Source of the DNA: a phage | Sequence record: PZ386972.1 | Reading direction: 5' to 3' (one strand) | Length of the DNA: 64,000 nt | Part shown: positions 9,042 to 60,245 of the stretch, in pieces | Position numbering within the stretch: the stretch's first letter is position 1 | Layout of the letters: each line of letters opens with the position of its first letter | Program-made: the position numbers and the translations under genes | The notes under the pieces: model-generated | Told to the model about the DNA's origin: nothing | Seen by the model: only the letters and a program-made list of their open reading frames with translations | Databases searched by the model: none

Positions 9042-9263
9042 ATGGGAAACGTCGTTCATCTGAGCCGTAAAACTAAAATACATCGTACTTCACTGAGTGC
9101 TGCTAATATGATTACACGTAAGGAAGGGGAAGAAAGTCCTAAGACAACCCTAGCGTGGAAAATTGTAACCTCAAATCCAAATAAACCATTCAATTATAAC
9201 GAGCTGAGCACCTCCATAGATATTCTATTAAAAGAAGTAGCTAGAGCTAAAGTAATTGAATAA
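9042..9263 (+). CDS. hypothetical protein
   Basis: ORF track 8973..9263; internal ATG 9042 preferred because it avoids overlap with phoH. Confidence 0.35.
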   Translation: MGNVVHLSRKTKIHRTSLSAANMITRKEGEESPKTTLAWKIVTSNPNKPFNYNELSTSIDILLKEVARAKVIE

Positions 9264-9405
9264 GCTAAAAAGCTAGACTGGTAATATACAGGGCCTGGGT
9301 ATGAAAATACTCGGGCCTTTTCTATCAGAAAATTTTATTTGCCTAATGACCGATAATAAAGTAGAATATTCCTTAAATCCTGATAACTATAAAAAGGAAA
9401 GCCAA

Positions 9406-11736
9406 ATGAGCCATCGCATTGAAAAAGTAATTAAACGTGACGGTACTGTAGAAGACTTTGCTCCTGAAAAACTCAATGGTTGGGCAGAGTATGGTTGCAA
9501 AACAGTTGATGTAAGTTGGTCCGCCATTACTATGGCTGCTCAAAAAACGCTACCTAAAGGGGTTGTAGATTCCGACACTCTGATGGACGCATTAATTAAA
9601 GCTGCTGAAAGTCTTATCAAAGATAACCCAGCATACGATGTGCCAGCAAAGGAATTACGTCTTGCGCAAATGCGTAAACGCCTTTATGACTCTTTCGAAC
9701 CGCCTTCTCTACGCTTCTTCCATGACCACATGGTTAGCGTAGGTGCATGGGAAGACATGAGTGCATGGATTACCGATGAGCAATTTGAAGCTCTGAATCA
9801 GGTTATCGACCATGATCGTGACCGTCTTTTTACTAGTGGTGGGCTGAAGCAGTTCTTTGATAAGTATTCCCGTCGTAACATAGCCACTGGTGAAATTTAC
9901 GAAACTCCGCAGTTTGCCTACATGGGTATGGCAATGGCGATGCTATCTCAACCTAACTGGACAATTCTAGATGCAATCGACCTCTACAACGCAATGTCAC
10001 TCCACAAAATCAACGTTCCTACGCCGCCACTGGTTGGTCTGCGCTCTAGTGACCGTGGATTTGCTAGTTGCTGCCTCGTGGATTCCACTGACACGTTGGA
10101 TTCAATCGACACCGCCGAGCACATCGTCTTCAAAATGGTCGCAGCCAGAGCGGGAATCGGGTATCATCTTGAAAGCCGATCAATTGCTGATCCGGTGCGA
10201 AATGGGGCATTCCCGCATTCCGGAAAACTGCCATATTATCGACACATTGACCGCTCAGTAAAGGCCAATACTCAGCAAACTCGTGGTGGTTCTGCTACAG
10301 TATCTTATCCATACTTCGACCCTGAAATCATTCAATTGATGCAGGTTAAGCAACAACGTGCTACAGATGAGAATAAAATCGATAAGATGGATTATTCTCT
10401 GAGCTTTAACAACCTTTTGTTAAAACGTTATCTTAAAAACGAAGATATTACGCTAATGTCATACTTCTATGCTCCAGAAGTTCATGAAGCGTTTTATAGT
10501 GATGACGAGGCTAAATTTGAAGAAATCTACGTGGCAGCGGAGAAACGTGTGGCATCTCTTACAAAGATCGACCACGAAGGAAAAACAGTTCCTGCAGCTC
10601 CTAAAGTCTCTGCAAAAGAAATCCTAGATACTTGGCTACGTATCCGAATGGAAACAGGACGTATGTATGCTCACCACATTGGAGAATCTAATCGTCACGG
10701 TAACTTCCTTGATCCGATCCGTATGACAAACCTTTGTGTTGAAATTACTCAGCCTACACGCCCGTTCCATCACATTACAGAGCTGTACAAGACAAAAGAG
10801 CAGCTTGATCAAATGAAGCCGGAGGATATTGGTGAAGTATCTCTGTGTAACTTAGGTGGTGTTGTACTTGGACGCATGGAATCTCTGGCTGAGTGGGAAA
10901 AAACTTGCTACATCCTTCTGAAATTTGTTGACACAATTATTGAAATTCAGGATTATCCGTTCCCAACTATGGAATATACGGCTAAGAAACGTCGTAATGT
11001 TGGTATTGGCCTGATGAACGCAGCGGGTGCAATGGCAGCAGAAGGTCTGGCTTACGAAGGTATTGAAGCCCGTAACTGGATTCACCGTGAGGCTGAAAAA
11101 CTGTCTTACTTCCTGCATAAAGCCTCTGTACGCCTGGCTAAAGAACAGGGTGCATGTGAGTGGTTTGATCGTACTAAACCATCTAAAGGAATTCTAGTAA
11201 TCGACACGTATAAGAAAACTGTTGATGAACTGGTATCCGTAGGTCTAGAAATGGATTGGGAGTCTCTACGTGCAGATATTCTGAAATATGGTATGCGTAA
11301 CTCTGTTCTGACTGCTCAGATGCCGGGAGAAAGTTCTTCTGTTCTGCTAGGAGTTACTAACTCTATTGAACCGCCTCGTAAGATTGTATCTATCAAGGGT
11401 AGTGCAGTGAATAAAGTAATTGCAATTGCTCCGGGTGCAACCGATTGGGAAACGTTAATGAGCTATAAACTGGCTTATGATGTAGATCGTATCGAGTGGA
11501 TCAAATGGGTAGCAACTATGCAAAAATTCTTCAGTCAGTCTATCAGTACGAATATGTACTATGACTACACCAAGTTTGAGAATGAAATCATTCCTGGCCC
11601 AGTAGTAGTTCGTGATTTCATGACTGCTGTTAAGTATGGGTGGAAAACTTTCTACTATGCAAACTTCAATACCGCAAATGGTGGAGGTGCTGGAGAAGAA
11701 GCAGCCGGTTGTGCATCCGGTGGTTGTACTATTTAA
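9406..11736 (+). CDS. nrdA: ribonucleoside-diphosphate reductase alpha subunit (class Ia)
   Basis: ATP-cone N-terminus, NLCVEI active-site region, C-terminal CASGGC; start at ATG 9406 with AAGGAAAG RBS (track start 9301 probably too early). Confidence 0.9.
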   Translation: MSHRIEKVIKRDGTVEDFAPEKLNGWAEYGCKTVDVSWSAITMAAQKTLPKGVVDSDTLMDALIKAAESLIKDNPAYDVPAKELRLAQMRKRLYDSFEPPSLRFFHDHMVSVGAWEDMSAWITDEQFEALNQVIDHDRDRLFTSGGLKQFFDKYSRRNIATGEIYETPQFAYMGMAMAMLSQPNWTILDAIDLYNAMSLHKINVPTPPLVGLRSSDRGFASCCLVDSTDTLDSIDTAEHIVFKMVAARAGIGYHLESRSIADPVRNGAFPHSGKLPYYRHIDRSVKANTQQTRGGSATVSYPYFDPEIIQLMQVKQQRATDENKIDKMDYSLSFNNLLLKRYLKNEDITLMSYFYAPEVHEAFYSDDEAKFEEIYVAAEKRVASLTKIDHEGKTVPAAPKVSAKEILDTWLRIRMETGRMYAHHIGESNRHGNFLDPIRMTNLCVEITQPTRPFHHITELYKTKEQLDQMKPEDIGEVSLCNLGGVVLGRMESLAEWEKTCYILLKFVDTIIEIQDYPFPTMEYTAKKRRNVGIGLMNAAGAMAAEGLAYEGIEARNWIHREAEKLSYFLHKASVRLAKEQGACEWFDRTKPSKGILVIDTYKKTVDELVSVGLEMDWESLRADILKYGMRNSVLTAQMPGESSSVLLGVTNSIEPPRKIVSIKGSAVNKVIAIAPGATDWETLMSYKLAYDVDRIEWIKWVATMQKFFSQSISTNMYYDYTKFENEIIPGPVVVRDFMTAVKYGWKTFYYANFNTANGGGAGEEAAGCASGGCTI

Positions 11737-47192: not shown

Positions 47193-47377
47193 TGGAAACT
47201 CTTTTTATTTTAATGCTAGTAGGTTCCTTGCTAGTTATACTAGCACTTCTATTTATTTGCAGTCTTCTTAATAAAGAGAACCTAGAGTTAAAGTGTGAGA
47301 ACCAAATCCTTAATCGTGAACTTGAACAATATAACCTAGCAGCCCATAAACTGTTAGACAAACTGGAGAATAAATAA
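47192..47377 (+). CDS. small membrane protein
   Basis: ORF track. Confidence 0.4.
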   Translation: METLFILMLVGSLLVILALLFICSLLNKENLELKCENQILNRELEQYNLAAHKLLDKLENK

Positions 47378-47982
47378 TGACTTTTAATGCACAACAATCT
47401 ATTCAAGTAGTACCGGATCATGAATTGAATACGTGGGATTATAGCTTTAAAGATTTAACTGCTACTGTACAATTCAAATCTATGAAGCTAACATTTGCAC
47501 ACGCTGACATTAGCGCCTGTAAAGATCTTGAAAGTAAGCTCGAAGATGCTCGTAAGATTTTTGGTACGGCTCGCATCCCCGCTGATAACCTGATTAATGC
47601 ACTGATCGATGCAGGGTACAAACTCGTGAAGACCGAGGTGAACCGCCCTAGTACTCCAGTGACTATTAGAGATCCGTGGCAATCAGGGTCAATCGCACTG
47701 TTAAATAAATCATCGGATTTGCACAATATTCCATGCGGTGGTACGCTGTCATCTAACCAATCCTATCGAGTTGGGGAAGATTATGGCCCTTCTGTACAGT
47801 TGAAACATACTCAAGAAGCTTTTGAATCTGATATGCGAAGCGTAGCACCTGCGGATGCTGGAGTTTCTAGGAGTTCTGTTTGTACTATTCATTTTAATAA
47901 TCCTGGTAAACATGGAAGTTTAGAGGATGCTATTATGGAGGCGTTGGGAGCTGCTATTAACGAGAGTAAAAAAGATCAATAA
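47377..47982 (+). CDS. hypothetical protein
   Basis: ORF track. Confidence 0.45.
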   Translation: MTFNAQQSIQVVPDHELNTWDYSFKDLTATVQFKSMKLTFAHADISACKDLESKLEDARKIFGTARIPADNLINALIDAGYKLVKTEVNRPSTPVTIRDPWQSGSIALLNKSSDLHNIPCGGTLSSNQSYRVGEDYGPSVQLKHTQEAFESDMRSVAPADAGVSRSSVCTIHFNNPGKHGSLEDAIMEALGAAINESKKDQ

Positions 47983-48439: not shown

Positions 48440-49171
48440 ATGAGTATTAGTGAGAATTTAAAGACTATTATTAAGCTGGCTAAGAATGCAGACGGCAAAT
48501 GTGTTTCTGAACTAACTCCTGATGAAGCTCATGCAGTAGCATTCTGTTCTGAGTTTCATCCCGCAGCTTATACAGAAGCTGGAATTGTTAAATATAATAA
48601 AGAAGAAAAATTCGTAACTCTATCTCCTTCTTATATTGCAATGAGAAAGATCATCAATTCTGTTGGTGATAAGATTGTAGGGTTCAAGGCAGATTCATAT
48701 CATGTCTTTGCAGATCAGGAACTTCCAGTATTTAAAGAAGGAAATGTTAGAGTTGCACTAGAATTATATCCCGAGGAAAAGTTCATTCCACCTAAACGTT
48801 GTGAATATGATCATCTTCCTAGACTCCAAAGAAAAGATACTGGATTCCCTTATACAAAAGATGAAGTGTTGCTAGGGATTGCTTCTACGATTGCGCAGGT
48901 TCATCTATGTCTCGAAAAGAACCTAGAGATGCCATTAATCTTACAGTCTGCACATAAAGCAATGTTAAATGACTGGGATCAATTCTTTAAGATTATAGGA
49001 GCTGTCGGATTAGCACGTTTACTTCCTGCATTTGAGAACTCTGAAGTATTTGGCGAAGGTTCTTTCGGAACTGTAGATTATGATGCGCTAAAATCCCCAC
49101 ACTCCTATCTTGCAACTTTTCTCTTCATGGTCTCGAAGGGTATCGTTCTCAAATACAAGCGGAAGGAATAA
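48440..49171 (+). CDS. hypothetical protein
   Basis: ORF track. Confidence 0.45.
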   Translation: MSISENLKTIIKLAKNADGKCVSELTPDEAHAVAFCSEFHPAAYTEAGIVKYNKEEKFVTLSPSYIAMRKIINSVGDKIVGFKADSYHVFADQELPVFKEGNVRVALELYPEEKFIPPKRCEYDHLPRLQRKDTGFPYTKDEVLLGIASTIAQVHLCLEKNLEMPLILQSAHKAMLNDWDQFFKIIGAVGLARLLPAFENSEVFGEGSFGTVDYDALKSPHSYLATFLFMVSKGIVLKYKRKE

Positions 49172-49188: not shown

Positions 49189-49218
49189 TTGACAACTCAT
49201 TAAGGTACATGTTATAAT
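49189..49218 (+). promoter_or_regulatory. promoter TTGACA-18-TATAAT directed into the gene-poor repeat locus
   Basis: Consensus hexamers; downstream 1.3 kb has no convincing plus-strand ORF. Confidence 0.5.
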
Positions 49219-49536: not shown

Positions 49537-49544
49537 TCTTTCTA

Positions 49545-49625
49545 GGGCGGTTCTCCTAAGTTTCTAGGAACATATACTAGGCGGTTTAATACAGGGCGGT
49601 TATTGGGAGGGCGGTTATTTCTAGG
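49545..49625 (+). repeat. short direct repeats GGGCGGTT (x4) interleaved with TTTCTAGG(A) (x3)
   Basis: Seen in sequence. Confidence 0.6.
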
Positions 49626-49660
49626 AGACATTTTTTGAAAACACATTTCCAGAAATTACT

Positions 49661-50260
49661 GTCGGATTTGCACATTGTGTTTCTAGAAATTTATGGTCGG
49701 ATTTGCACAATCGCCTAAGTTTTTAGGAACATATAATCTCTTGAAAATGGCAGCATTATTTCGGGCCGAAGGCCCATGATTGCCTGAGTTTTTAGAGCCA
49801 CAAGAATTTTCACTTGTCAAGCTATTTTGCCCCATTTTGCTAATAAAATTTTACTTTATCTGCACTTATCTCAAATTAACCCAAATCTTCTCAACTCTTC
49901 TCCAAAATCCCCGCAAATCAGGTGCTCCGCACCAAACATGCGCCCCTCCCGCAGTTCCCCCAAATTTCTCTCGCTCTCTCAACTTCTCCCCAAACTCACA
50001 CAATCACACACCCTCTAATCGAAGTCACAAAAATCTTGTCGGATTCGCACATCTTAATCCTAGAAAAACCATGTCGGATTTGCACATACCCCACAGGATT
50101 CGAACGCAGTTCGTGATTGCTGGAGTTTTTAGGAAAATTCATTGTCGGATTTGCACACTATAAAAATTTTTCGGGTCGGATTTGCACACTACCAAAAATT
50201 GTCGGATTTGCACATACACGCCCCCGCGTAATCCATGGGGGCAAATGTCGGTTTTGCACA
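49661..50260 (+). repeat. array of 8 direct copies of the 14-mer GTCGGATTTGCACA (two with single substitutions), irregular spacing
   Basis: Copies at about 49661, 49696, 50038, 50073, 50144, 50175, 50201, 50247. Confidence 0.8.
49800..50035 (+). other. G-depleted, C/A-rich low-complexity tract on the plus strand
   Basis: About 235 nt with almost no G on the plus strand. Confidence 0.6.
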
Positions 50261-50285
50261 AAAGCGCAGGGCAATTGCCCTGCCC

Positions 50286-50450
50286 ACCTGAATGCAAATA
50301 AAAATGAGAATCGTTTGCATTTAAAAAGTGAAATGAGAATGATAATGATTCGCATTTAGAAAGTGAAATGATTCTCATTTAGAAAGTGGAATGATTCTCA
50401 TTTAGATAGTGAAATACAAATGATAATGATTCGCATTTAAGAACGGAAGT
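50286..50450 (+). repeat. iteron-like repeat cluster (ATGATTCTCATTTAGAAAGTG and GATAATGATTCGCATTTA units)
   Basis: Three to four tandem or inverted copies of about 20-bp units rich in AATGAGAAT/ATTCTCATT. Confidence 0.7.
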
Positions 50451-50470
50451 GAGAAACACTATTATTTAAG

Positions 50471-50479
50471 TTATCCACA
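50471..50479 (+). promoter_or_regulatory. DnaA box TTATCCACA
   Basis: Exact consensus 9-mer. Confidence 0.6.
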
Positions 50480-50543
50480 GACTTATTAACAGCACGATTT
50501 GACTTGACAGAATCCTAGCCATTTTGAGGCGTTATTAACAGAC

Positions 50544-50552
50544 TTATCCACA
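50544..50552 (+). promoter_or_regulatory. DnaA box TTATCCACA
   Basis: Exact consensus 9-mer; adjacent CTTATCCTA variant. Confidence 0.6.
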
Positions 50553-50945
50553 GCTTATCCTACTGTATAAATATACAGTATTCCTACGCAGTGAATAATT
50601 CTAATATAGCGTTAAAACGTCCTAGATCGCATTCTAACGCGTTTAATTTTGGTGGGGATACTAAAACAAGGGCAAAATTGGAGGAGGCTTGAAAATTAGT
50701 TAGCTCGCTAACGATCACACAAGGCGACACGTAACATCCTAATCATTAGCAGGCTAACCATCGCGGGCGCGGTCAAATAAGAATGATTCTCATTTGAGAA
50801 TTGGGGCACTTCCTGATAGTTGCGCCCCGTGATTATTACAGTAGTGGGCAACCGTTACGCTTTGCCCATTCCCGCCACTCATCTTGATGTCTAGACTTGC
50901 GACGGCGTACTAAAAACCGTTTATACCAGTGATTAAACCATCGTT

Positions 50946-51179
50946 TCATAAATCCTCCTCCGGTAGTCGATGCGTGATTTTTTCCTCCTCCCCATAGGAA
51001 TCCGCCAAATGCTGATAATAACCCTCGTGATCATAAATCACTTTATCATACTCGCCACGCTCGACCGCTTGCCGATTCTCTGGCGTATCGGGCACGTAAA
51101 AAACGTCTACCATCGTAGTAGTTTTGGTCACAATAATTTTATTGCTCATAGTAACTCCTAGTAAATATATTTTTGCCAA
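50946..51179 (-). CDS. hypothetical acidic protein
   Basis: ORF track; GGAGG RBS. Confidence 0.4.
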   Translation of the reverse strand: MAKIYLLGVTMSNKIIVTKTTTMVDVFYVPDTPENRQAVERGEYDKVIYDHEGYYQHLADSYGEEEKITHRLPEEDL

Positions 51180-51249
51180 TAGTGGCGAACGTTATCGCCA
51201 CCAGCGGAATCATTAGCTGCCTCAACATTACCAACGAAAATATATAATT

Positions 51250-51609
51250 TCATTGCGCCACCTTTCGAAACGCTGTTTCAATACTATCAGCCGTGGATTG
51301 AATATACGCGCCTTTCATTATCAGGCGCTCGGTGCATACCTTGCGGAAAATATTAATAAAATCCTCTTCATTTTCTGCAATCAATGCTTCCCCCATGACC
51401 TGAATATCACAAGATGCAAAGGTCAAAAATTGAAATGCTAGTTCACGGGCAACGACCGCATTGATTTTATAATGCGCCTTGCCCTCATAAATATTAATAA
51501 CGCCCTTGTAAGCTGGGGAAAGCTGATTTAAGTAATTTGCTAGTAATGCCGGACGGCAATTAGCAACAAAGCGATTGCCTTCATAAATTATCATTTGCAT
51601 AGCTCCCAA
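51250..51609 (-). CDS. hypothetical protein
   Basis: ORF track. Confidence 0.4.
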   Translation of the reverse strand: MGAMQMIIYEGNRFVANCRPALLANYLNQLSPAYKGVINIYEGKAHYKINAVVARELAFQFLTFASCDIQVMGEALIAENEEDFINIFRKVCTERLIMKGAYIQSTADSIETAFRKVAQ

Positions 51610-51836
51610 ATAGTTCCGCCGATGATCATTAGCTGACTAATAATTATCAGAATAAAACCAATTGAAGGCAGGACGCCCCAATATTGGAACGCCCTTTTAA
51701 TTTGTTGAATCATTTGTTAGCCTCCCAATCAGATAGCCAGATAAAAGCATAAAAATCCCCAATGAAAGGGGATCATTTTTAAATAAGGTGGCGGTAAAAC
51801 CGCCAACCATTGCAAGGATAATAATAATAACGCTTT

Positions 51837-52049
51837 TCATAGTACCCCACGAAAGGCCGCGTAAAAGGTGGCAAAGTGTTTAACCGTTTCAGCGATAACG
51901 TTGCCGCGCTTATCAAATTTCTTTTCTGTAACACGGAAGGCGTTTTTATTCCGCGCTACATATTCGATTTTACAATCAGGACGCTCAAACGTGTTTACAT
52001 CCACCAGCTTAAAGCCTTTCGAACGTGCAAGGGAAACGTTGCGAATCAT
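51837..52049 (-). CDS. hypothetical basic protein
   Basis: ORF track. Confidence 0.35.
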   Translation of the reverse strand: MIRNVSLARSKGFKLVDVNTFERPDCKIEYVARNKNAFRVTEKKFDKRGNVIAETVKHFATFYAAFRGVL

Positions 52050-52248
52050 TTTTTATTCTCCTTTACTAGTCATGCAGCCCAGCAGATAAGAAAATGCAGC
52101 GATACCCGCGCCAATAATAACCGCGTGGACACCGAAAGCTATTGCAAAAAGGGATAAAATAGCGCCCAAGATACCTGCTAGAATAGCTCGAAAAATAACC
52201 ATTTTCATTCTCCTAGTTAGTGGGGCGAAAGTAACGCCCCGTTATTAA

Positions 52249-52557
52249 TTACATTAAAACAATTTTAGCGGCTTGTTTTTTAGTACAGTGTTCCGCTTTC
52301 AGGGTATCCAGCAAAAAGCCCGCCGTTTGCTGATCGATTTTATCGGCATTATATAGTTCCTGAATGGTGTTATAGGTTTTAGCAATGCCGAACTCCTGCA
52401 CCATTTCATGAATGATGACGCGATTAGATACCCAACCTTGCGCGGTGAACAGATGACTAGCAGAAGAATAAGCAACCATTTTAAGCCTCCAAATTTTTGG
52501 GAAAATTTTTAATCCACCGTTTTGGTGTAAAGGCATTATAACAAAAAAGGCCACCAT
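52249..52557 (-). CDS. hypothetical protein (start uncertain, may be an internal ATG)
   Basis: ORF track; hairpin GGGGCG...CGCCCC just downstream. Confidence 0.35.
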   Translation of the reverse strand: MVAFFVIMPLHQNGGLKIFPKIWRLKMVAYSSASHLFTAQGWVSNRVIIHEMVQEFGIAKTYNTIQELYNADKIDQQTAGFLLDTLKAEHCTKKQAAKIVLM

Positions 52558-52584
52558 AAAAGGCGACCTTTACAAAACTTTACA

Positions 52585-53079
52585 TTAAACTACCTGTAAG
52601 GATTCAATATTGAAACATCGTTTCAATTCGTCATGCAAAACAGCATATTCCTCCCATCGGGTACTATCAGGAATATAAACAAGCTGTTTTAATCGGTTTG
52701 CATATATTACCGCTTTGTTATCGACTATCTCGACGCCGCCATATTTAATAATTAATTTCATGACGGAATTAATAGGATCTCCGCCGTTTACATATGTGCC
52801 GGATTTACTTAGCTGATAATGATAAAGGCTTGCATATACGTTTTCATTTTCATACCATTCGCCAGTTTCTTCGTCTTCATAGCCATCGCTACCAAAACGA
52901 GAAGCATTATCAACAGCCATTTCATGAGCAAAAGCGTCCAGATCCGTACCAGCAGGAACAAAATATTCCTCGGTATTCCCTTCCCCGCAATAGCCAGTAT
53001 GACAATCGACCAAAATGATCATATCATGTTTTGCCGTGCTCACTTCCCCTAGCGAGAAGCCGTATTTTTCCTCAGCCAT
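52585..53079 (-). CDS. hypothetical acidic protein
   Basis: ORF track, AGGAGG RBS. Confidence 0.45.
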   Translation of the reverse strand: MAEEKYGFSLGEVSTAKHDMIILVDCHTGYCGEGNTEEYFVPAGTDLDAFAHEMAVDNASRFGSDGYEDEETGEWYENENVYASLYHYQLSKSGTYVNGGDPINSVMKLIIKYGGVEIVDNKAVIYANRLKQLVYIPDSTRWEEYAVLHDELKRCFNIESLQVV

Positions 53080-53144
53080 TTATTAGCCTCCTATTAGTTA
53101 ACAAGGGAATAGTAGAGCGGGGAAATAATCCCCGCTAGTTATTA

Positions 53145-54155
53145 TTACTCGCTTTCGGTGCTAGTGGTAAAAGTAGAAATATCAATACCTTTTACCATTT
53201 CATCAATCATTTCAGCGATGTTAAAACTTTGCACCATTTCTAGCATTGCCGCCTCCATAGCTGCACCTGCCACCGCTTTCGCCTTTTGGTTAGTCGGGGC
53301 GTACTGGTCAACCGCTACACTTAGCAGGTTAGCGATCACTACACGACCAATCGGCGTATCAATATAACCTTTAATCATGAACGGCGCTTTTTTAGCCGCT
53401 ACTTTCGTGATTTGAGTCAGTGCAATTTTACCCGCTTCCAGTTTTGCAGCATTTACAACAGCGGATTTATTGGCGGCAACGATGTTAGCAATCTTGGTCA
53501 TGGTATTTTTTCCTTTGTTTTCAGTAGTTTGAGTGTTAACGCTTTGAGTGTTAGAATTTACATCATGTTTTTCTATATTGTCAATAGGCTGATTTTCATC
53601 TTTCCAGAAAGAAAAACCAGCGCTTTCAATATCTCCGTCATAAATATACGAGTATAGTTCCGAGGGTAACAAAAAATTACCATCGCCATCAAAAGCCATT
53701 ACAGCGGTATATTGAGATCCGTCATCATCCGGCTTATGCCACCCAGCGGGTAAATACTTCCAGATAACATTTAAAAATCCCTCAATACTAGAAAGTCCAT
53801 TTATCAGATCAAGTCCAATAAGCTCAAAACCATTTATATTAAATGATTGACGGCCTGAATTGCTATGATACGCAACAATATTATTGCCCTGCGCAATAAT
53901 AAAATCGGCATCCGGCCCCGCTCCCCTGCCTGTAAAGATATGGCAATCCCGATTATATAAAACTAACGTTGCCCCTTGCTTATATAGTGGTAGAAAACTA
54001 TCAATATCATAAGCGTCATAATCATCAAAAAAGTTTTGATGAATAGTTTCAGCCTTGTTAATAAAATGTTTAATACTGGTTGTCCTGCTACCGTCCAGCA
54101 GGTTGCGCAATGCACCTTTTAAAACGGTGGCATTATCAGGTTTATAAAGCCTCAT
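53145..54155 (-). CDS. hypothetical protein (336 aa), first gene of the minus-strand pre-early block
   Basis: ORF track, GAGGGAGG RBS; terminator-like hairpin GCGGGGA...TCCCCGC downstream. Confidence 0.5.
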   Translation of the reverse strand: MRLYKPDNATVLKGALRNLLDGSRTTSIKHFINKAETIHQNFFDDYDAYDIDSFLPLYKQGATLVLYNRDCHIFTGRGAGPDADFIIAQGNNIVAYHSNSGRQSFNINGFELIGLDLINGLSSIEGFLNVIWKYLPAGWHKPDDDGSQYTAVMAFDGDGNFLLPSELYSYIYDGDIESAGFSFWKDENQPIDNIEKHDVNSNTQSVNTQTTENKGKNTMTKIANIVAANKSAVVNAAKLEAGKIALTQITKVAAKKAPFMIKGYIDTPIGRVVIANLLSVAVDQYAPTNQKAKAVAGAAMEAAMLEMVQSFNIAEMIDEMVKGIDISTFTTSTESE

Positions 54156-54456
54156 TTGTTCGGCCTCCCTCGTTAATCGGTGAGTGAATGATATAGATAT
54201 TTTCTTTCTAGGGGCAAATATTATTTTACCTTTTTACCTTTTTATTTTCCTTGCCTAGCGCCTAGTTTTATGCTAACCGCGCAGCGGTGCAATAAAGAGC
54301 AAAACACGGCGAAGCCACCAGGGCGACGGGTGAAGGCTTTACTTTAATATTACTCCACCGCATTTAGCTCGTTAGAAAGCGTTTTAGGCCGCTTAAAATT
54401 GATTGCAGTTGTTAACACTACCTTTCTACCCTGTATATTTATACAGTAGAATAACC

Positions 54457-54465
54457 TGTGGATAA
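54457..54465 (-). promoter_or_regulatory. DnaA box (TGTGGATAA on plus strand)
   Basis: Exact consensus. Confidence 0.6.
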
Positions 54466-54468
54466 GTC

Positions 54469-54477
54469 TGTGGATAA
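54469..54477 (-). promoter_or_regulatory. DnaA box (TGTGGATAA on plus strand)
   Basis: Exact consensus, 12 nt from the previous box. Confidence 0.6.
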
Positions 54478-54529
54478 GTCTTTATATCGCCGCCTATCGT
54501 GTCAAATCATTTTGTGCTGTTAATAAACT

Positions 54530-54538
54530 TGTGGATAA
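54530..54538 (-). promoter_or_regulatory. DnaA box (TGTGGATAA on plus strand)
   Basis: Exact consensus. Confidence 0.6.
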
Positions 54539-54649
54539 CTTAAATGATAGTGGTTCTCACTTAGGCCGATAGTTTCTTATAGTTATTATTTCTCATTAAT
54601 TTATATGTATATTATATATCATGAAATAGTTAGTTGGCTAATGAGATTT

Positions 54650-54830
54650 TCCGTGATTAATAGTCTGCTAATAGTTTAAGCCGTTACAATCCACCAGCAT
54701 GATTATCATCCTAGCAATTATTAGTCTGCTATCTTTCCGATGCATACTAACAAATAAAAGTCAATTAATTTATTTCATAAAATAAGTAGTTATCCACTGG
54801 AAAATAAAAGTCAAGTGGATAACTAGGAAA
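54650..54830 (+). repeat. AT-rich control region with direct repeats (ATTAnTAGTCTGCTA x2, AATAAAAGTCAA x2) and two convergent DnaA-like boxes
   Basis: TTATCCACT at about 54790 and its inverse AGTGGATAA at about 54814. Confidence 0.55.
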
Positions 54831-55280
54831 ATTTCATTTTTGCTTTTGGGGATAAGTTATCAACAAGGCTAGAATGCGCCTAAAACGCCCTAGAATGCGA
54901 TGAAAGTTTTAGTCATGCCATTGCATTGCCTACCCTCGTTTATCGCTACCACGAGCTTTTTAGGTTTTGTCAAGTAGGGCAAAGCAAATATAAATGAAAA
55001 AATTACTTGCCTATCTGCTATGTTTTGTGGTATTCGCGCGCCCGTTTCTTTTAATTTTAGTGCGCCGCGCCCAGGTCGCCGCACGCCGTCCGGTGGATCG
55101 TGTCTTTACATTTCTTTACAAAATTAAGGTTGCGCCCTTTTCGGGAATCCCCTATTATTTATCACGTAGGGCGGCAATGACGAACTACACGGCGGGAAGT
55201 TTACCGCCGCGCTCTTTAAAAATTGGGTACATCTTAAAGCCTATCGGCGGTAAACTTATACATTATAAGGAATCGACGAT

Positions 55281-55484
55281 ATGAAACAAACTTTATTGAT
55301 CACTGGTAAACCTAGCAAGGCACTGGACAGCAAAACAAAAAATTTGTTGACAGTAGCGCAAAGATCGGTAAAATATCGATTTAAGCAGTACAAGAAAGGT
55401 CGCCAGCAAGGTCTGGAAATGATCTGGCGAAATATTATGATTGACCTGAAAGAAAATCATAAAAAATCTCAAAAAATTGTTTGA
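55281..55484 (+). CDS. small basic protein
   Basis: ORF track. Confidence 0.4.
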   Translation: MKQTLLITGKPSKALDSKTKNLLTVAQRSVKYRFKQYKKGRQQGLEMIWRNIMIDLKENHKKSQKIV

Positions 55485-55711
55485 CAACCTAGCCGATAGG
55501 TTTTAAGATGTACTCAGTTCGATAAGAGCGATAACTTGATAAAATTTGACGGTCGGTGCTTACCATAATGCATCCCGCCCCCTAACTGGGATATAGCGGC
55601 CTACGTGGAGTTCTTTAAATTGAATATACTGGCGAGCGGATTGTTACTTATTACCTGCTACTTTCTAGCAGGTAATGCGGAACAATCCCCAAATAACTAG
55701 GAGTTTATATT

Positions 55712-55963
55712 ATGCAAAACGTTATCACCGCGCCGAAAGTTGGTCAGTCTGTTTTTATTCCTTTCGTTACTAAAACGGATGAACTAACCGGAAAAGCCGA
55801 ACGTATTAAAGGTGCGGCGCTTATGCCGTTTGATACAATCGACGCGGTATATGCTGAAAATGAACGCAGTAACAACGGCAAAACCGTTTTTAGCGTTCGG
55901 GTTAAATCCGGCGATGTTGTAAAGGTTGTTCAACGCAACGAAAAATGGGAAGCTGTTTTATAA
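55712..55963 (+). CDS. hypothetical protein
   Basis: ORF track, AGGAG RBS. Confidence 0.45.
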   Translation: MQNVITAPKVGQSVFIPFVTKTDELTGKAERIKGAALMPFDTIDAVYAENERSNNGKTVFSVRVKSGDVVKVVQRNEKWEAVL

Positions 55964-56061
55964 TTTAGTGTTAACTTTATATACCCCAGTAGTTAGGGGT
56001 ATATAACGATTAACATTATGTTAATCTTATCCCTTAAATTAAACTAATAGGAGTTTTTACC

Positions 56062-56469
56062 ATGACTAACGTTAAAACCGCAAAATTCGCTTGGAATGAA
56101 GAAAACACCCAGAAAGCTGTTTCTATGTACCAGCAGTTAATCAATGAAAACGGTTTAGATTTCGCAAATAGTGACGGGCTGAAAGAGATTGCAAAAGCAG
56201 TAGGCGCGGCTTCTCCCGTGTCAGTTCGCTCAAAATTGACCAGTGCAAAAGCCTACCAAAAAAGCGATAAGCCTCGTAAAGTTGGCGGCGGTAGTTCTGT
56301 ACGCAAGGCGCATTATGTGCGCGTTATCGCTAAACACGCCATTGATTCCGGCATTATCAAAGACGCTGATGATCTGGCAAGTCTGGAAAGTGCAAAACTT
56401 GAAACGCTGGATGCGGTAGCGCAACTGTTAGGCGTTGCTGATGAAGTGAAACAAGCCGCAGGAGAATAA
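56062..56469 (+). CDS. hypothetical protein
   Basis: ORF track, AGGAG RBS. Confidence 0.45.
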   Translation: MTNVKTAKFAWNEENTQKAVSMYQQLINENGLDFANSDGLKEIAKAVGAASPVSVRSKLTSAKAYQKSDKPRKVGGGSSVRKAHYVRVIAKHAIDSGIIKDADDLASLESAKLETLDAVAQLLGVADEVKQAAGE

Positions 56470-56477
56470 TTATATAC

Positions 56478-56508
56478 CTTGCCCCCTTCTAGTGAGGGGG
56501 CAATAATA
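56478..56508 (+). terminator. rho-independent terminator
   Basis: CTTGCCCCC...GGGGGCAA hairpin. Confidence 0.55.
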
Positions 56509-56558
56509 TAACTGTTTAGCGATAGTTATTTTCTTCCCTTAAATCAGGAGTTTTAAAA

Positions 56559-56756
56559 ATGATTTTCTTTCCTACTGAATCCTTAATTCTAGGCTTGTTT
56601 ATTATGGCGGCCTCGTTATTGTTCGCTTATTTTCAAAATGATTTAGATTCGTATTATTTTAAACGTAAATCTAAGTTAGCAAAACGTTTGGGCTTGCTTT
56701 GTTTTATCGCTGCCGTTGCTTGTGGTGTTAGTTCTAGCCTTATGCCTTTAAATTAA
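56559..56756 (+). CDS. small membrane protein (2 TM)
   Basis: ORF track. Confidence 0.4.
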   Translation: MIFFPTESLILGLFIMAASLLFAYFQNDLDSYYFKRKSKLAKRLGLLCFIAAVACGVSSSLMPLN

Positions 56757-56846
56757 TGTTGCAAATTATAACGCCTATTATTCGAGGCGTTATATTTGGC
56801 AATATTGCCGTTATTAATCTAATCCCTTTAATGGAGTTTTATTATT

Positions 56847-58511
56847 ATGATTATTTCCGCAGAAAAACAAACCGTTATCCTGAAAATGGCCGCTGACTTT
56901 AATTTCTATGGTAAACGTCTGCGCGCCACTAAACTGGAGGTCTGCGACGATATATCAAAAGCGGTATATGATACTACAAAACACTCGACCGCTATCTGCG
57001 ACTGGCTGGAAGCAAATAAACCAGTTAAACCGAAAGCGGCGAAAGTAGCAAAAGCCATTAAAAACGATGAGCGTCCAGAAGCGGCGGGGATTGTTTCTAG
57101 CACGGTTGAACAGTGGGAAGTAAAACAAGGCAAACGCTTTATTATTACGTCGATTCAGAATAATACTTTCCCGCATAAAAACTTTTTAGCCTCATTGGAA
57201 AAATTCGCTGAATATATCGGTGCTGATTTGCTTGTTTCTAAGTATATTTATAATAAAAACGGCTTCCAAAATGGCGAGGGTGCGGATGGAATCAAATATG
57301 ATTCCGCGTTCGATAAATATATTTGCAGCAAAAACGTGTTTTTAAATAACCGCCGTTTTGCTTTCATGGCTGAAATTAACGTGTTACCAACCGCAGACTA
57401 TCCGCTTTCTGGATTCGCTGAAACTGCAACGGCGCTTAATCTGGAAGGTCTGGCAATCGGTCACGCTAAAATCACCGCTGAAAGCGTGCCAGCTCTCAAA
57501 GGTGAAGTAGTACGCCGTATGTATTCAACGGGCACGGCAACGCTCAAAAACTACATTCAGCAAAAAGCAGGGCAAAAAGCGGAGGCGCTTCATAACTTTG
57601 GTGCGCTGATTGTCGAGTTCGATGATGATGGTGAGTTTTTTGTGCGCCAGCTTGAAACAATGGATGAAAGCGGGGTGTTTTATGATCTGAATGTTTGCGC
57701 TACTCCCGCAGGATGCTATGAAACATCGGGGCATGTGCTAGGCTTGCAATATGGTGACATACACGCCGAAAAACTGGATGATGATTGTGCCGTTGCGTCA
57801 TGGGCTGGCGAAAATAGCTTGCTTGATATTCTTAAACCAAAATATCAGTTTATCCATGACGTGCATGATTTTACATCCCGCAATCATCATAATCGTGCAT
57901 CCGGTGTATTCCTAGCTAAACAATACGCCGCCGGACGTGATAAAGTTCTGGATGATCTTATCGATACTGGTCGCGTGCTGGAATCGATGGAACGTGATTT
58001 TAGTCAAACGATTATTGTGGAATCTAACCATGATTTAGCGTTATCCCGCTGGTTGGATGATCGTAATGCTAACATTAAAGACGATCCAGCAAACGCGGAA
58101 CTATATCACCGCCTGAATGCCGCGATTTACGGAGCTATTGCAGAAAAAGACGATACTTTCAACGTGCTAGATTATGCATTGCGCAAGGTTGCAGGTTGTG
58201 AGTTTAACGCCATTTTCCTAACAACTGACCAATCATTTAAAATTGCAGGCATCGAGTGTGGCGTACACGGTCACAACGGCATTAACGGCAGCCGTGGCAA
58301 TCCTAAACAATTTAAGAAATTGGGCAAATTGAACACCGGACACACTCACACCGCCAGCATTTACGGCGGGGTATATACCGCTGGCGTTGCTGGTAGTCTC
58401 GATATGGGTTACAACGTTGGCGCGTCAAGCTGGACGCAAACGCATTTAATTACCTATGCAAACGGGCAGCGCACTTTGATCGATTTTAAGAATGGTAAAT
58501 TCTTTGCGTAA
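56847..58511 (+). CDS. A1: A1-like pre-early protein, metallophosphoesterase-fold nuclease
   Basis: 554 aa; calcineurin-like motifs GDIHAE, ESNHD, GHTHT; size and placement beside dmp-like gene match T5 A1 (from memory). Confidence 0.6.
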   Translation: MIISAEKQTVILKMAADFNFYGKRLRATKLEVCDDISKAVYDTTKHSTAICDWLEANKPVKPKAAKVAKAIKNDERPEAAGIVSSTVEQWEVKQGKRFIITSIQNNTFPHKNFLASLEKFAEYIGADLLVSKYIYNKNGFQNGEGADGIKYDSAFDKYICSKNVFLNNRRFAFMAEINVLPTADYPLSGFAETATALNLEGLAIGHAKITAESVPALKGEVVRRMYSTGTATLKNYIQQKAGQKAEALHNFGALIVEFDDDGEFFVRQLETMDESGVFYDLNVCATPAGCYETSGHVLGLQYGDIHAEKLDDDCAVASWAGENSLLDILKPKYQFIHDVHDFTSRNHHNRASGVFLAKQYAAGRDKVLDDLIDTGRVLESMERDFSQTIIVESNHDLALSRWLDDRNANIKDDPANAELYHRLNAAIYGAIAEKDDTFNVLDYALRKVAGCEFNAIFLTTDQSFKIAGIECGVHGHNGINGSRGNPKQFKKLGKLNTGHTHTASIYGGVYTAGVAGSLDMGYNVGASSWTQTHLITYANGQRTLIDFKNGKFFA

Positions 58512-58564
58512 TTAAATTATTCCCTAGCGGCTTGAAATATAGCCGCTATCACAGGAGTCAAAAA

Positions 58565-58822
58565 ATGAAAGTTACATTACCCAAAACATTGGACGAAAAA
58601 GTATTCATTTCACCGGATGAAATGGAATCTGATAAAGTTTACAGCTTCGGGCCTATCCTAGCCGCCAAAACTAATACGGATGGTATTATTTCCGTCGATT
58701 CCCGTGATAACGATATTGTCCCTTTTGATGATGATGGTGCTTTTTATGAGTGGCTAAGCGATAATAATTTACCCGTAAACGGTGAATTAACGCCATACCA
58801 GATGCAGATTATTATCAAATAA
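58565..58822 (+). CDS. hypothetical acidic protein
   Basis: Internal ATG of track ORF 58532..58822 with GGAG RBS. Confidence 0.4.
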   Translation: MKVTLPKTLDEKVFISPDEMESDKVYSFGPILAAKTNTDGIISVDSRDNDIVPFDDDGAFYEWLSDNNLPVNGELTPYQMQIIIK

Positions 58823-58860
58823 ATTAAATCCATTATCAAACTAACTGGAGTTTTATAAAT

Positions 58861-59259
58861 ATGAAAAAGCAAAATATCCCATTCGATCGCGCTCAGTCCT
58901 CAATTGTTCTGGTTTATTCTAATGGCGAACGTTACCACGTCGAGGCGGGGCACGTTATTGATGACCTATTAGATTTCAATGACGCTTTGCAGGTTACTAC
59001 CTTTGCCTATACGCAAGGCAAACTAACCAGCCATATTAAGGCAAAAGGCGTTTATGTTGACACGGTGAAACAAGAAACGGTTATCATCGATGCCGTAAAA
59101 TCCGGCCTAGCCTTTGCAGTTGTCGCGCCTTGCCTCGCTTGCCTTGATGATCAATTGATTAGTGCAAAGGTCTACACATGTGCGGGGATTCGTTCTAGCG
59201 TATCCGGTGAGGATGTTAGTTTTATCGCTGATGCTCTCGCTTTTGGTCTGGCGTTCTAA
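58861..59259 (+). CDS. hypothetical protein (132 aa; possibly A2-like)
   Basis: ORF track; position between A1-like and dmp-like genes. Confidence 0.35.
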   Translation: MKKQNIPFDRAQSSIVLVYSNGERYHVEAGHVIDDLLDFNDALQVTTFAYTQGKLTSHIKAKGVYVDTVKQETVIIDAVKSGLAFAVVAPCLACLDDQLISAKVYTCAGIRSSVSGEDVSFIADALAFGLAF

Positions 59260-59273
59260 TAGTTAATTGAACA

Positions 59274-59306
59274 TAGCCCACTAATAAAATATAATTAGTG
59301 GGCTAG
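59274..59306 (+). terminator. hairpin, possible terminator
   Basis: AGCCCACTAAT...ATTAGTGGGCT inverted repeat, no clear U-run. Confidence 0.35.
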
Positions 59307-59346
59307 ATTGAATTAATCTAATCCCTTAAATGGAGAACGTAACAAA

Positions 59347-60081
59347 ATGAATCAAGTTAAAACGAATATTACCCGTAATTTCCCGCATATTTCCCGCGTC
59401 ATGATTTGGGATTTAGACGGCACTATCGTTAATTCCTTCCATCGTGTAGCGCCTTGCTTTGATAGCGAGGGCAATTTAGATTTAAATAAGTATAAAAATG
59501 AAGCCTGCAAACATCATTTAATAATGCAAGATACTTTATTGCCATTAGTTGAATATATGCGCCAGTGCATGAATGACGCAAATACTTTAAACATTATTTG
59601 CACCGCTCGACTAATGAGCAAGTCGGACTATTATTATTTGCGCAAACAAGGCTTGCGCGGTCGTGGTAATAGTAATATTCGCGTGTTTTCCCGTGATACA
59701 CTGCATAAATATTTTGAGGCTGATAAAGTTAGCGAAATATACCACAGCAAGGACGCAGTATATAAATCTTATTATTTTGAATTATTTAAACAACTATATC
59801 CGAACGCTGATTTTACAATGATTGATGATCATAAAGGCGTGCTATCAGCGGCAGCATCATACGGATTTAAAACGCTGGACGCGCAAGCCGTTAACGATAT
59901 TCTATCAATCGGCGTGACATTAATAGGTGAAACCTTTATTGATGAATCTCTCGACGATGATAATGATTATCAATTCCTAGCTGACCGCTTAAAGCTATGC
60001 TGGGAAGGTATGACCGAGGAAGAACGCGCAGAATATAGTTGCAGCCCGCAACAATATATCGAGAAATTAAAAGTTGCGTAA
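59347..60081 (+). CDS. dmp: HAD-type 5'-deoxyribonucleotidase (dmp-like)
   Basis: 244 aa with WDLDGTI HAD motif; size matches T5 dmp (from memory). Confidence 0.6.
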   Translation: MNQVKTNITRNFPHISRVMIWDLDGTIVNSFHRVAPCFDSEGNLDLNKYKNEACKHHLIMQDTLLPLVEYMRQCMNDANTLNIICTARLMSKSDYYYLRKQGLRGRGNSNIRVFSRDTLHKYFEADKVSEIYHSKDAVYKSYYFELFKQLYPNADFTMIDDHKGVLSAAASYGFKTLDAQAVNDILSIGVTLIGETFIDESLDDDNDYQFLADRLKLCWEGMTEEERAEYSCSPQQYIEKLKVA

Positions 60082-60099
60082 TAATTAAAGTTGAAATAG

Positions 60100-60136
60100 T
60101 TTCATCCTGCAATTAAAATGATTGCAGGATGAAACA
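60100..60136. terminator. bidirectional terminator hairpin between convergent gene blocks
   Basis: GTTTCATCCTGCAAT...ATTGCAGGATGAAAC perfect 15-bp inverted repeat. Confidence 0.65.
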
Positions 60137-60245
60137 ATTACCCTGCTAATAGTAACGGGGGTGGCGGTTAGCAGACTAAGTATTTTCGCCGGAGGCAGTG
60201 GACACACCTCCATGTGTAATCTTATGAAATTTGGCAAAAGTCAGA

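What the first reader, a model, noticed from the sequence alone, without database searches (positions are those of the whole stretch)
49540..50270. Eight-copy 14-bp direct-repeat array (GTCGGATTTGCACA) in a 1.3 kb gene-free locus fed by a consensus promoter
Eight near-identical 14-mers lie in one orientation at irregular spacing, next to GGGCGGTT and TTTCTAGG repeats and a 235-nt tract almost devoid of G. A TTGACA-18-TATAAT promoter at 49189-49218 points into the locus, yet no credible plus-strand ORF follows. The pattern fits a protein-binding array at the inner boundary of a T5-type terminal repeat (injection-stop or replication-control locus, or a non-coding transcript) rather than coding sequence. 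The specific 14-mer is not something I can place in described biology from memory.
Basis: partly seen in the sequence, partly recalled or inferred. Interest (0 to 1): 0.8.

Follow-up and report, generated by a model that had tools for sequence, protein, structure and literature searches.

The report
T5 "direct repeat D" array
The eight 14-base repeats are the already-annotated "direct repeat D" array of the phage T5 injection-stop locus, a conserved non-coding set of probable protein-binding sites that flanks the inner end of the phage's long terminal repeat and whose function is still unknown.

Summary
In detail: eight copies of GTCGGATTTGCACA (at most 1 mismatch), all on the + strand, lie at 49661-50260 (chance expectation 0.3). 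The window is a T5-like phage (Demerecviridae). The array is the "direct repeat D" (DRD) annotated in T5 record AY587007, inside "Repeat Region 3", the injection-stop-signal (iss) locus. It is therefore already described, although the literature up to 2026 gives it no function.

- The terminal-repeat (TR) end maps to window 49795, in the gap between two outer and six inner copies. Six phages with independently annotated repeats show the same placement.
- The motif is family-wide (T[A/C]G[A/G]A-TYYGCAC, one strand only, 6-11 copies), reaching Vibrio phages whose A1 protein is only about 33% identical. Proteus and Aeromonas relatives lack it.
- A strong promoter pointing into the array is conserved.
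- The pre-early DNA-binding protein A2 models as a Myb/homeodomain-like protein. Some of its residues change in step with the motif, but the small terminase subunit shows a similar signal.

Best reading: a binding array for a phage protein. A2, acting in second-step DNA transfer, is favoured (about 0.4). Terminase recognition of the genome end is a close rival (about 0.3).

The parts
49189..49218 (+). Sigma-70 consensus promoter (TTGACA-18-TATAAT, extended -10 TG) directly after the last early gene, reading toward the array and the terminal repeat
   Evidence: 12/12 matches. A promoter at the same position and orientation is found in Klebsiella phage Roth50 (12/12), Pectobacterium phage My1 (11/12) and Vibrio phage Noelle (10/12).
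49537..49630 (+). Block of GGCGGTT (x4) and TTTCTAGG (x3) short repeats on the unique-DNA side of the array
49661..49709 (+). Outer DRD pair (copies at 49661-49674 and 49696-49709), outside the terminal repeat; equivalent to T5 DRD copies 8 and 7
49763..49775 (.). Nearly invariant GC hairpin GGGCCGAAGGCCC just outside the repeat end
49777..49794 (+). Element TGATTGCCTGAGTTTTTA (T5 strand: TAAAAACTCAGGCAATCA) that abuts the terminal-repeat end. Related copies lie at 49708 and 50114, and a similar element lies next to T5 major nick 2.
49795..60204 (-). The terminal repeat (about 10.4 kb, single collapsed copy, reverse-complemented relative to T5). Position 49795 corresponds to the T5 right (inner) TR end and 60204 to T5 position 1.
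   Evidence: eight records with defined termini stop at query position 696, which is window 49795; boundary sequence identical in T5, BF23, Sepoy and SPC35.
49800..50035 (+). G-depleted, C-rich spacer (7.6% G) between the two DRD blocks, highly conserved among T5-like phages
50038..50260 (+). Inner DRD block of six copies (50038, 50073, 50144, 50175, 50201, 50247), inside the terminal repeat; equivalent to T5 DRD copies 6 to 1
50264..50283 (.). GCGCAGGG (reverse complement of the T5 major-nick motif CCCTGCGC; T5's 7.9% nick) 3 nt after the innermost DRD unit, overlapping hairpin GCAGGGCAATTGCCCTGC (T5 palindrome J), which is terminator-like on the - strand
50299..50452 (+). AATGATTCTCATTT-type repeats (T5 direct repeat C and palindromes E-I)
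50471..50580 (+). T5 IRD'-spacer-IRC' segment: DnaA boxes TTATCCACA at 50471 and 50544, and a LexA-box-like palindrome TACTGTATAAATATACAGTA at 50561-50580. Its inverted partner lies at 54431-54562.
56062..56469 (+). Gene A2 (135 aa), a pre-early DNA-binding protein and the favoured candidate reader of the array
56847..58511 (+). Gene A1 (554 aa), the partner of A2 and required for second-step transfer

Best explanation
Shown: this is the direct-repeat-D (DRD) array of the T5-type injection-stop locus. It is a non-coding set of asymmetric 12-14 bp units, all in one orientation. The units form two blocks (2 outer, 6 inner) that flank the inner end of the roughly 10.4 kb terminal repeat, and the innermost unit abuts the conserved 7.9% nick motif. 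The unit is conserved as T(A/C)G(A/G)A-TYYGCAC across most Demerecviridae, while the DNA between units is not alignable between subfamilies.

Inferred: each unit is a binding site for one phage-encoded sequence-specific DNA-binding protein. I take this to be A2, the essential pre-early protein that is the known DNA-binding partner of A1. Its model shows a Myb/homeodomain-like head plus a second helical domain, which suits an asymmetric bipartite site.

Proposed mechanism (inferred): first-step transfer halts with roughly the leftmost 8% of the genome inside the cell. The array is then the first DNA that must move inward. Newly made A2, together with membrane-associated A1, loads onto successive units as they become accessible. 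This holds or ratchets the DNA so that second-step transfer restarts. The same complex may also mark or pair the repeat ends.
Against: No binding data exist. The covariation rests on six lineages and residues examined after the fact. TerS gives an equally ranked signal in the same test. An earlier, stricter column test with a cruder motif classification showed no excess. A2 is retained at about 35-44% identity in the two lineages that lack the array, so it must have another target or role there. The A2 model does not by itself explain why the repeat end falls inside the array in every phage checked, or why T5 keeps two extra copies inside gene D13. The position of the transfer stop is known only approximately from shear experiments.
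Confidence: 0.4

Rival explanations
1. Terminase recognition array. The units are binding sites for the small terminase subunit (TerS), in the manner of lambda cosB or the SPP1 pacL/pacR sites. They position the large subunit to cut the concatemer at the inner repeat end, between the two blocks. Because the left end is injected first, the right end is presumably packaged first, so packaging would start there with the six-copy block on the packaged side.
For: The repeat end lies in the gap between the blocks in T5, BF23 (PhageTerm), Sepoy (PhageTerm), SPC35, My1 and Noelle. In the four T5-type records the boundary sequence is identical...GTGG(A/C)TC|TAAAAACTCAGG. The same pair-gap-cluster layout appears in valsw3, with a 361-bp gap. 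The stretch around the cut is almost invariant. T5-like phages encode a TerS (PHROG 3802). The TerS covariation test ranks the array-less pair first: G15, E20, P128, N136. A conserved strong promoter reads toward the cut site. From my own knowledge, not tested here, this recalls the transcription requirement at the T7 concatemer junction.
Against: The TerS helix-turn-helix segment is not conserved between T5 and Vibrio phage Noelle, although both carry the identical 12-mer TCGGATTTGCAC. No DRD unit lies near the other repeat boundary at 60204. TerS is 51% identical in Proteus phage 2, which has no array anywhere in its 102 kb. Two conserved DRD units sit mid-genome in gene D13, where a packaging signal would be harmful. 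The nearest units are 86 and 243 bp from the cut.
Confidence: 0.3
2. Host DnaA sites. The units are weak DnaA boxes (ATTTGCACA against TTWTNCACA) that extend the DnaA-box cluster Davison proposed to tether incoming DNA to membrane-bound DnaA and so stop injection.
For: The last 9 nt match the relaxed DnaA consensus at 8 of 9 positions, and the copy at 50247 (TTTTGCACA) matches 9 of 9. Consensus DnaA boxes lie about 210 bp away at 50471 and 50544. Davison's DnaA model is described in bioRxiv 10.1101/866236.
Against: The 5' half, TCGGA/TAGAA, is as conserved as the 3' half and is not part of any DnaA box. In Vibrio lineages the unit becomes TTCGCACATAG or TCCGCACTCAC, moving further from the DnaA consensus even though DnaA specificity is the same in those hosts. 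Spacing is irregular (15-81 bp), unlike oriC low-affinity arrays. Davison himself did not count the DRD units as DnaA boxes.
Confidence: 0.07
3. Part of a non-coding transcript. The conserved promoter at 49189 drives an RNA that carries the eight units as repeated RNA motifs, acting as a sponge or regulator.
For: The consensus promoter is conserved in four lineages and points into the array. No intact ORF follows it.
Against: No Rfam family matches; the best hit has E 0.88. In Noelle, predicted terminators lie before the first unit. In My1, a strong terminator lies after only two units. The units continue across the physical genome end, so in virion DNA the right-hand copy of the inner block is separated from the promoter. 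No + strand terminator is predicted in the window.
Confidence: 0.06
4. Iterons of a replication or recombination origin, bound by a phage replication initiator.
For: The layout is iteron-like: direct repeats, irregular spacing, neighbouring DnaA boxes and AT-rich repeats. T5-like phages encode a protein annotated 'replication origin binding protein' (window 2476-2, minus strand).
Against: That protein resembles herpesvirus UL9 only in the helicase N-terminus (Pfam profile positions 51-197 of 820). It is 67% identical in the array-less Proteus phage. According to Davison, citing earlier EM work, T5 origins were mapped near the genome centre.
Confidence: 0.05

Closest known systems
T5 'direct repeat D' (DRD) in Repeat Region 3, the injection stop signal (iss) locus (GenBank AY587007 and AY692264; Davison, bioRxiv 10.1101/866236)
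   Same: The 14-mer is identical, on the same strand relative to A1/A2 and with the same order of copies. The neighbours match too: nick motif, palindrome J, direct repeat C, and the IRD'-spacer-IRC' segment with DnaA boxes. The position at the inner end of the terminal repeat is also the same.
   Different: The window has 8 copies where T5 has 9; T5's outermost copy falls in a segment not shared with the window. The window is about 85% identical to T5 across the locus and about 92% to Salmonella phages PK7 and PK8.
Terminase recognition arrays such as lambda cosB (R sites) and SPP1 pacL/pacR
   Same: Several short asymmetric sites lie within a few hundred bp of, and on both sides of, the site where the genome end is cut. 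The description of cosB and pac comes from my own knowledge.
   Different: TerS binding is untested. The motif is conserved where the TerS HTH segment is not. The second repeat boundary has no such sites.
Bipartite Myb/homeodomain-type site readers (Rap1 at telomeric repeats, Reb1 at Ter sites, Tc3 transposase)
oriC-type DnaA box clusters
   Same: The 3' part of the unit resembles a DnaA box, and true DnaA boxes are adjacent.
   Different: The conserved 5' half, the irregular spacing and the lineage-specific drift do not fit DnaA recognition.

Membership tests
T5 DRD array / Repeat Region 3 (iss locus) | The genome is a T5-like phage (Demerecviridae) with dmp, A1 and A2 in the terminal repeat | tested here: met
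   dmp 59347-60081, A1 56847-58511, A2 56062-56469.
T5 DRD array / Repeat Region 3 (iss locus) | The unit sequence equals the T5 DRD consensus | tested here: met
   the nine annotated T5 DRD copies are GTCGGATTTGCACA with at most 1 mismatch; the window has eight such copies.
T5 DRD array / Repeat Region 3 (iss locus) | Located in the untranslated gap between pre-early and early genes, overlapping the inner end of the terminal repeat, with the same flanking landmarks | tested here: met
T5 DRD array / Repeat Region 3 (iss locus) | Acts in cis to stop first-step transfer | not testable with these tools
   This needs infection experiments. The literature itself treats the DRD role as unknown.
DnaA box array | 9-mer matching TTWTNCACA | tested here: not met
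   Only the copy at 50247 matches 9/9. The other seven have A at position 1, and one of them (50038) also has C in place of T at position 4. The conserved TCGGA half lies outside the box.
DnaA box array | The motif stays stable across hosts that share DnaA specificity | tested here: not met
   The unit drifts to TTCGCACATAG and TCCGCACTCAC in Vibrio phage lineages.
Terminase recognition site (cosB/pac type) | Sites lie next to the terminase cut that forms the genome end | tested here: met
   The repeat end lies between the two blocks in six phages.
Terminase recognition site (cosB/pac type) | Bound by the small terminase subunit | not testable with these tools
   Indirect evidence only: the covariation signal equals that of A2, but the TerS HTH segment is not conserved where the motif is.
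Replication-origin iterons | A cognate initiator whose specificity tracks the repeats | tested here: not met
   The UL9-like protein matches only the helicase region of the Pfam family and is conserved in the array-less phage.
Structured non-coding RNA | Match to a described RNA family, or a transcript that spans the array | tested here: inconclusive
   No Rfam match. A promoter is present, but predicted terminators precede most units in My1 and Noelle. No expression data were examined.

The most novel reading that the evidence does not exclude
The DRD array is the missing cis-acting target of A2. A Myb-like pre-early protein would load directionally on the units that straddle the terminal-repeat end and, with A1, restart DNA entry. 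Because the terminase cut lies within the same array, genome-end formation and two-step injection would be mechanistically coupled through one conserved nucleoprotein site across Demerecviridae.
Probability: 0.2. Interest if true: 0.7.

Novelty: already known. Interest (0 to 1): 0.4.

Why it matters
How T5 stops DNA entry after about 8% of the genome and then restarts it has been an open question since the 1960s. Papers from 2020 to 2026 still call the mechanism unknown. The array itself is not a discovery. What this analysis adds is three concrete, testable points: the unit is a family-wide motif that varies by lineage, it always brackets the terminal-repeat end, and there are two specific candidate readers, A2 and TerS. 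Simple binding assays and repeat-scrambling mutants could separate the two candidates.

Tried and rejected
1. I recalled that HSV UL9 box I (CGTTCGCACTT) resembles the DRD variant GGATTCGCACA. The window does encode the protein (2476-2, minus strand). However, the Pfam match covers only the helicase N-terminus, and the protein is 67% identical in the array-less Proteus phage. Rejected.

2. DRD as part of nick-site recognition. T5 major nicks 1-3 share CCCTGCGC, but nicks 2 and 3 have no DRD beside them, and nick 4 is about 370 bp from DRD copies 11/12. Rejected.

3. The abutting genes are not homologous across lineages: 16-31% identity, with PHROG 8993 only in enteric phages. Rejected.

4. Presence/absence profiling of pre-early genes. 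Only A1, A2 and dmp are universal, and none is restricted to array-bearing lineages. Uninformative.

5. Arrays of GGATTTGCAC in non-T5 viral contigs. These turned out to be unrelated elements: sigma-54-like TGGCAT-N5-TTGCA, GGTGCA..TGCACC palindromes, and coding repeats. Rejected.

6. My first split into motif-positive and motif-negative lineages used a 10-mer with at most 1 mismatch and was too strict. The A2 'YQK..RKxHYVR' association built on it failed a column-level control. It was replaced by the revised classification and test.

8. Davison's 2015 review could not be retrieved.

Full report
**1. The observation**

The 14-mer GTCGGATTTGCACA occurs eight times with at most one mismatch between 49661 and 50260. 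Every copy is on the + strand. Dinucleotide-preserving shuffles of the window give 0.30 matches at up to 2 mismatches, against 11 observed.

- A 12/12 sigma-70 promoter with an extended -10 at 49189-49218.
- GGGCGGTT and TTTCTAGG repeats at 49539-49625.
- A G-depleted spacer. It is 7.6% G rather than 'almost devoid'.

The only sizeable + strand ORF (49780-50163) is interrupted in 14 of 18 close relatives even though the DNA is about 95% identical. The locus is therefore non-coding.

**2. What it is**

The locus matches 457 phage records, all T5-like. The best are Salmonella phages PK7 and PK8 at 92% identity.

The window's + strand is the reverse complement of the conventional T5 orientation. 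T5 position 1 maps to window 60204, and the sequence continues directly into T5's right-end unique genes. The window therefore holds a single, collapsed copy of the terminal repeat (TR) with both boundaries present.

T5 record AY587007 annotates nine 'direct repeat D' (DRD) copies at 9672-10409, and these are the same 14-mer. The neighbours also match:
- The 7.9% major nick.
- Palindrome J.
- Direct repeat C.
- The IRD'-spacer-IRC' segment with DnaA boxes.

T5 record AY692264 labels 9140-10144 'injection stop signal'. Davison's analysis of 25 T5-like phages describes this 'Repeat Region 3', lists the nine DRD copies, and states that his model assigns no role to these repeats. Papers from 2026 still describe the stop and restart mechanism as unknown.

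The array is therefore an already-described feature whose function is undescribed.

**3. Anatomy relative to the genome end**

T5 (as annotated in AY587007), BF23 (PhageTerm), Sepoy (PhageTerm) and SPC35 all place the inner TR end at the same sequence...GTGG(A/C)TC|TAAAAACTCAGG. Eight IMG/VR records with defined ends stop at the same point.

In the window this puts the first TR base at 49795. Two DRD copies (49661, 49696) lie outside the repeat, and six (50038-50247) lie inside it. The cut falls in the conserved 342-bp gap (start to start) between the blocks.

The same placement holds in two distant phages:
- Pectobacterium phage My1: 6 copies inside, 3 outside.
- Vibrio phage Noelle: the boundary lies within the array.

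The innermost unit is followed 3-4 nt later by GCGC, the nick core, in the window, T5, Roth50, BF23, Noelle and pVp-1. However, T5's other major nicks share only CCCTGCGC and have no DRD beside them. DRD is therefore not the nick signal.

**4. Conservation**

Across 18 T5-like loci the layout is fixed: 8-9 copies, never inverted. DRD columns are more conserved than the rest of the region (96.6% versus 88.6%; 64 of 5000 permutations reach this). The whole block 49590-50580 is under strong constraint.

Far beyond T5, the unit persists as T(A/C)G(A/G)A-TYYGCAC with a lineage-specific 3' flank:

| Phage | Unit | Copies |
|---|---|---|
| My1 | TCGGATTTGCACT | 9 |
| Klebsiella phage Roth50 | T5-type | 8-10 |
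| Vibrio phage Noelle | T5-type core, 3' C | 6-8 |
| Vibrio phage pVp-1 | T5-type core, 3' C | 11 |
| Vibrio phages 70E37-3 and D254 | TTCGCACATAG | 6 each |
| Vibrio phage valsw3 | TAGAATCCGCACTCAC | 7 (spacing 27/361/17/17/19/15) |

In every case the copies sit on one strand, the A1/A2 coding strand, in the gap between early and pre-early genes. Each array has 6-11 copies on that strand versus 0-1 on the other, against about 0.1-0.2 per kb elsewhere.

Proteus phage 2 (whole genome checked) and Aeromonas phage AhSzq-1 (the region upstream of A2 checked) have no such array.

A scan of IMG/VR found the TCGGATTTGCAC-type array only in Demerecviridae. Other contigs that share the 10-mer are unrelated elements.

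A strong promoter reading from the last early gene toward the array is conserved in the window, Roth50, My1 and Noelle.

**5. Who reads it**

A motif that drifts by lineage argues for a co-evolving phage protein rather than a host factor. For this reason I rate DnaA low, despite the 8/9 resemblance to a DnaA box. The conserved TCGGA/TAGAA half is also unexplained by DnaA.

Only A1, A2 and dmp are shared by all lineages.

The case for A2:
- It matches a PHROG 'DNA binding protein' family.
- It models confidently (pLDDT 86) as an N-terminal three-helix domain, a basic linker and a second helical domain.

I ran a controlled covariation test. For each of the 15 possible pairs among six lineages, I counted the columns that are invariant in the other four lineages and changed in both members of the pair. 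The results:
- A2: the array-less pair (Proteus + Aeromonas) ranks first, with A19, S57, Y85 and R87. The two TYCGCAC lineages rank second, with R81 and V86.
- A1: that pair scores zero in 603 columns, so shared ancestry does not explain the A2 result.
- TerS: the same pair also ranks first, with G15, E20, P128 and N136.

The test therefore does not separate the two candidates.

Two considerations tip me toward A2:
- Its predicted recognition helix (SVRSKL) is invariant wherever GCAC is invariant.
- The TerS helix-turn-helix segment differs freely between T5 and Noelle, which share the identical 12-mer.

One consideration tips toward TerS: only a terminase model explains directly why the cut site always lies inside the array.

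**6. Verdict**

- The feature is real, non-coding and under selection.
- It is already known as T5's DRD array in the injection-stop locus.
- Its function is open.
- I commit to a phage-protein binding array. A2-mediated restart of second-step transfer is the most likely role (0.4). Terminase recognition of the right genome end is a close rival (0.3). DnaA, RNA and origin models are minor.
- Interest is moderate. The finding is not new, but it bears on a long-standing question, and the analysis yields a simple decisive experiment.

Noticed in passing
window 50561-50580 and 54429-54448: Near-consensus LexA (SOS) box TACTGTATAAATATACAGTA, matching the 20-mer consensus at 19 of 20 positions, inside T5 'palindrome D'. 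A weaker copy (3 mismatches) lies in the inverted partner region. Only three CTGT-N8-ACAG sites occur in the whole 64 kb window.
   Followed up: partly
window 50335-50353, 59953-59977: Fur-box-like sequences: GAGAATGATAATGATTCGC with 4 mismatches of 19, and GACGATGATAATGATTATC with 3 mismatches. They lie in first-step-transfer DNA of a phage group that uses iron-regulated outer-membrane receptors. Significance was not tested.
   Followed up: no
L048 (Vibrio phage 70E37-3) 9900-11400: The non-coding DNA upstream of A2 holds at least 4 LexA-box-like palindromes, 2 CRP-like TGTGATCTnnGTCAC sites and DnaA boxes. Host-factor-type sites therefore look like a recurring feature of pre-early non-coding DNA in this family.
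   Followed up: no
window 49777-49795 and 60196-60204; T5 L050 751-790: The repeat ends look related. The TR begins TGTCCACTG and ends CTGTGG(A/C)TC, an imperfect inverted repeat matching at 6 of 9 positions. The element just outside the inner end (TAAAAACTCAGG) resembles the sequence following T5 major nick 2 (CTAGAAACTCTGG). This hints that end-cutting and nicking share recognition elements. The DT571/2 record calls TerS 'probable sciB protein', i.e. the nick gene.
   Followed up: partly
T5 AY587007 79019-79048 (L111 620-649); outside the window: Two further DRD units 16 bp apart (annotated copies 11 and 12) lie inside gene D13, about 370 bp from major nick 4, with an inverted near-copy about 320 bp away. 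They were found by exact match in 18 T5-like genomes. No model explains them.
   Followed up: partly
L113 9714-10190 (Aeromonas phage AhSzq-1) and L047 5077-5553 (Akh-2): The TerS genes of both Aeromonas phages contain 5-6 in-frame TAG codons at otherwise conserved positions. This probably explains the fragmented annotation of these genomes. It could reflect amber read-through or recoding, or sequence errors.
   Followed up: no
L042 9064-9160 (Noelle), L048 6839-6999 (70E37-3), L113 3534-3742 (AhSzq-1), L040 6935-7073 (Proteus phage 2): Just inside the DRD-type array, or in its place in Proteus and Aeromonas phages, there is a tandem array with a period of about 15-18 bp and a lineage-specific unit such as CTTCTATCCATC or TTCTATTATTC. 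It occupies the position held by the AATGATTCTCATTT repeats in the window.
   Followed up: no
window 47712-47725 and 49004-49017: Two outlying DRD-like copies on the same strand lie inside early ORFs: ATCGGATTTGCACA within 47377-47982, and GTCGGATTAGCACG within 48440-49171.
   Followed up: no
window 2-2476 (minus strand): This encodes the first ~824 residues of a ~925-aa 'replication origin binding' helicase (PHROG 3712) that is cut off by the window start. Its Pfam similarity to herpesvirus UL9 is limited to the helicase N-terminus.
   Followed up: yes
L001 (chee24) 3889: The chee24 record annotates its left terminal repeat as ending at 9968, inside the G-poor spacer and roughly 200 bp short of the boundary sequence shared by T5, BF23, Sepoy and SPC35. 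This is probably an annotation difference rather than biology.
   Followed up: no
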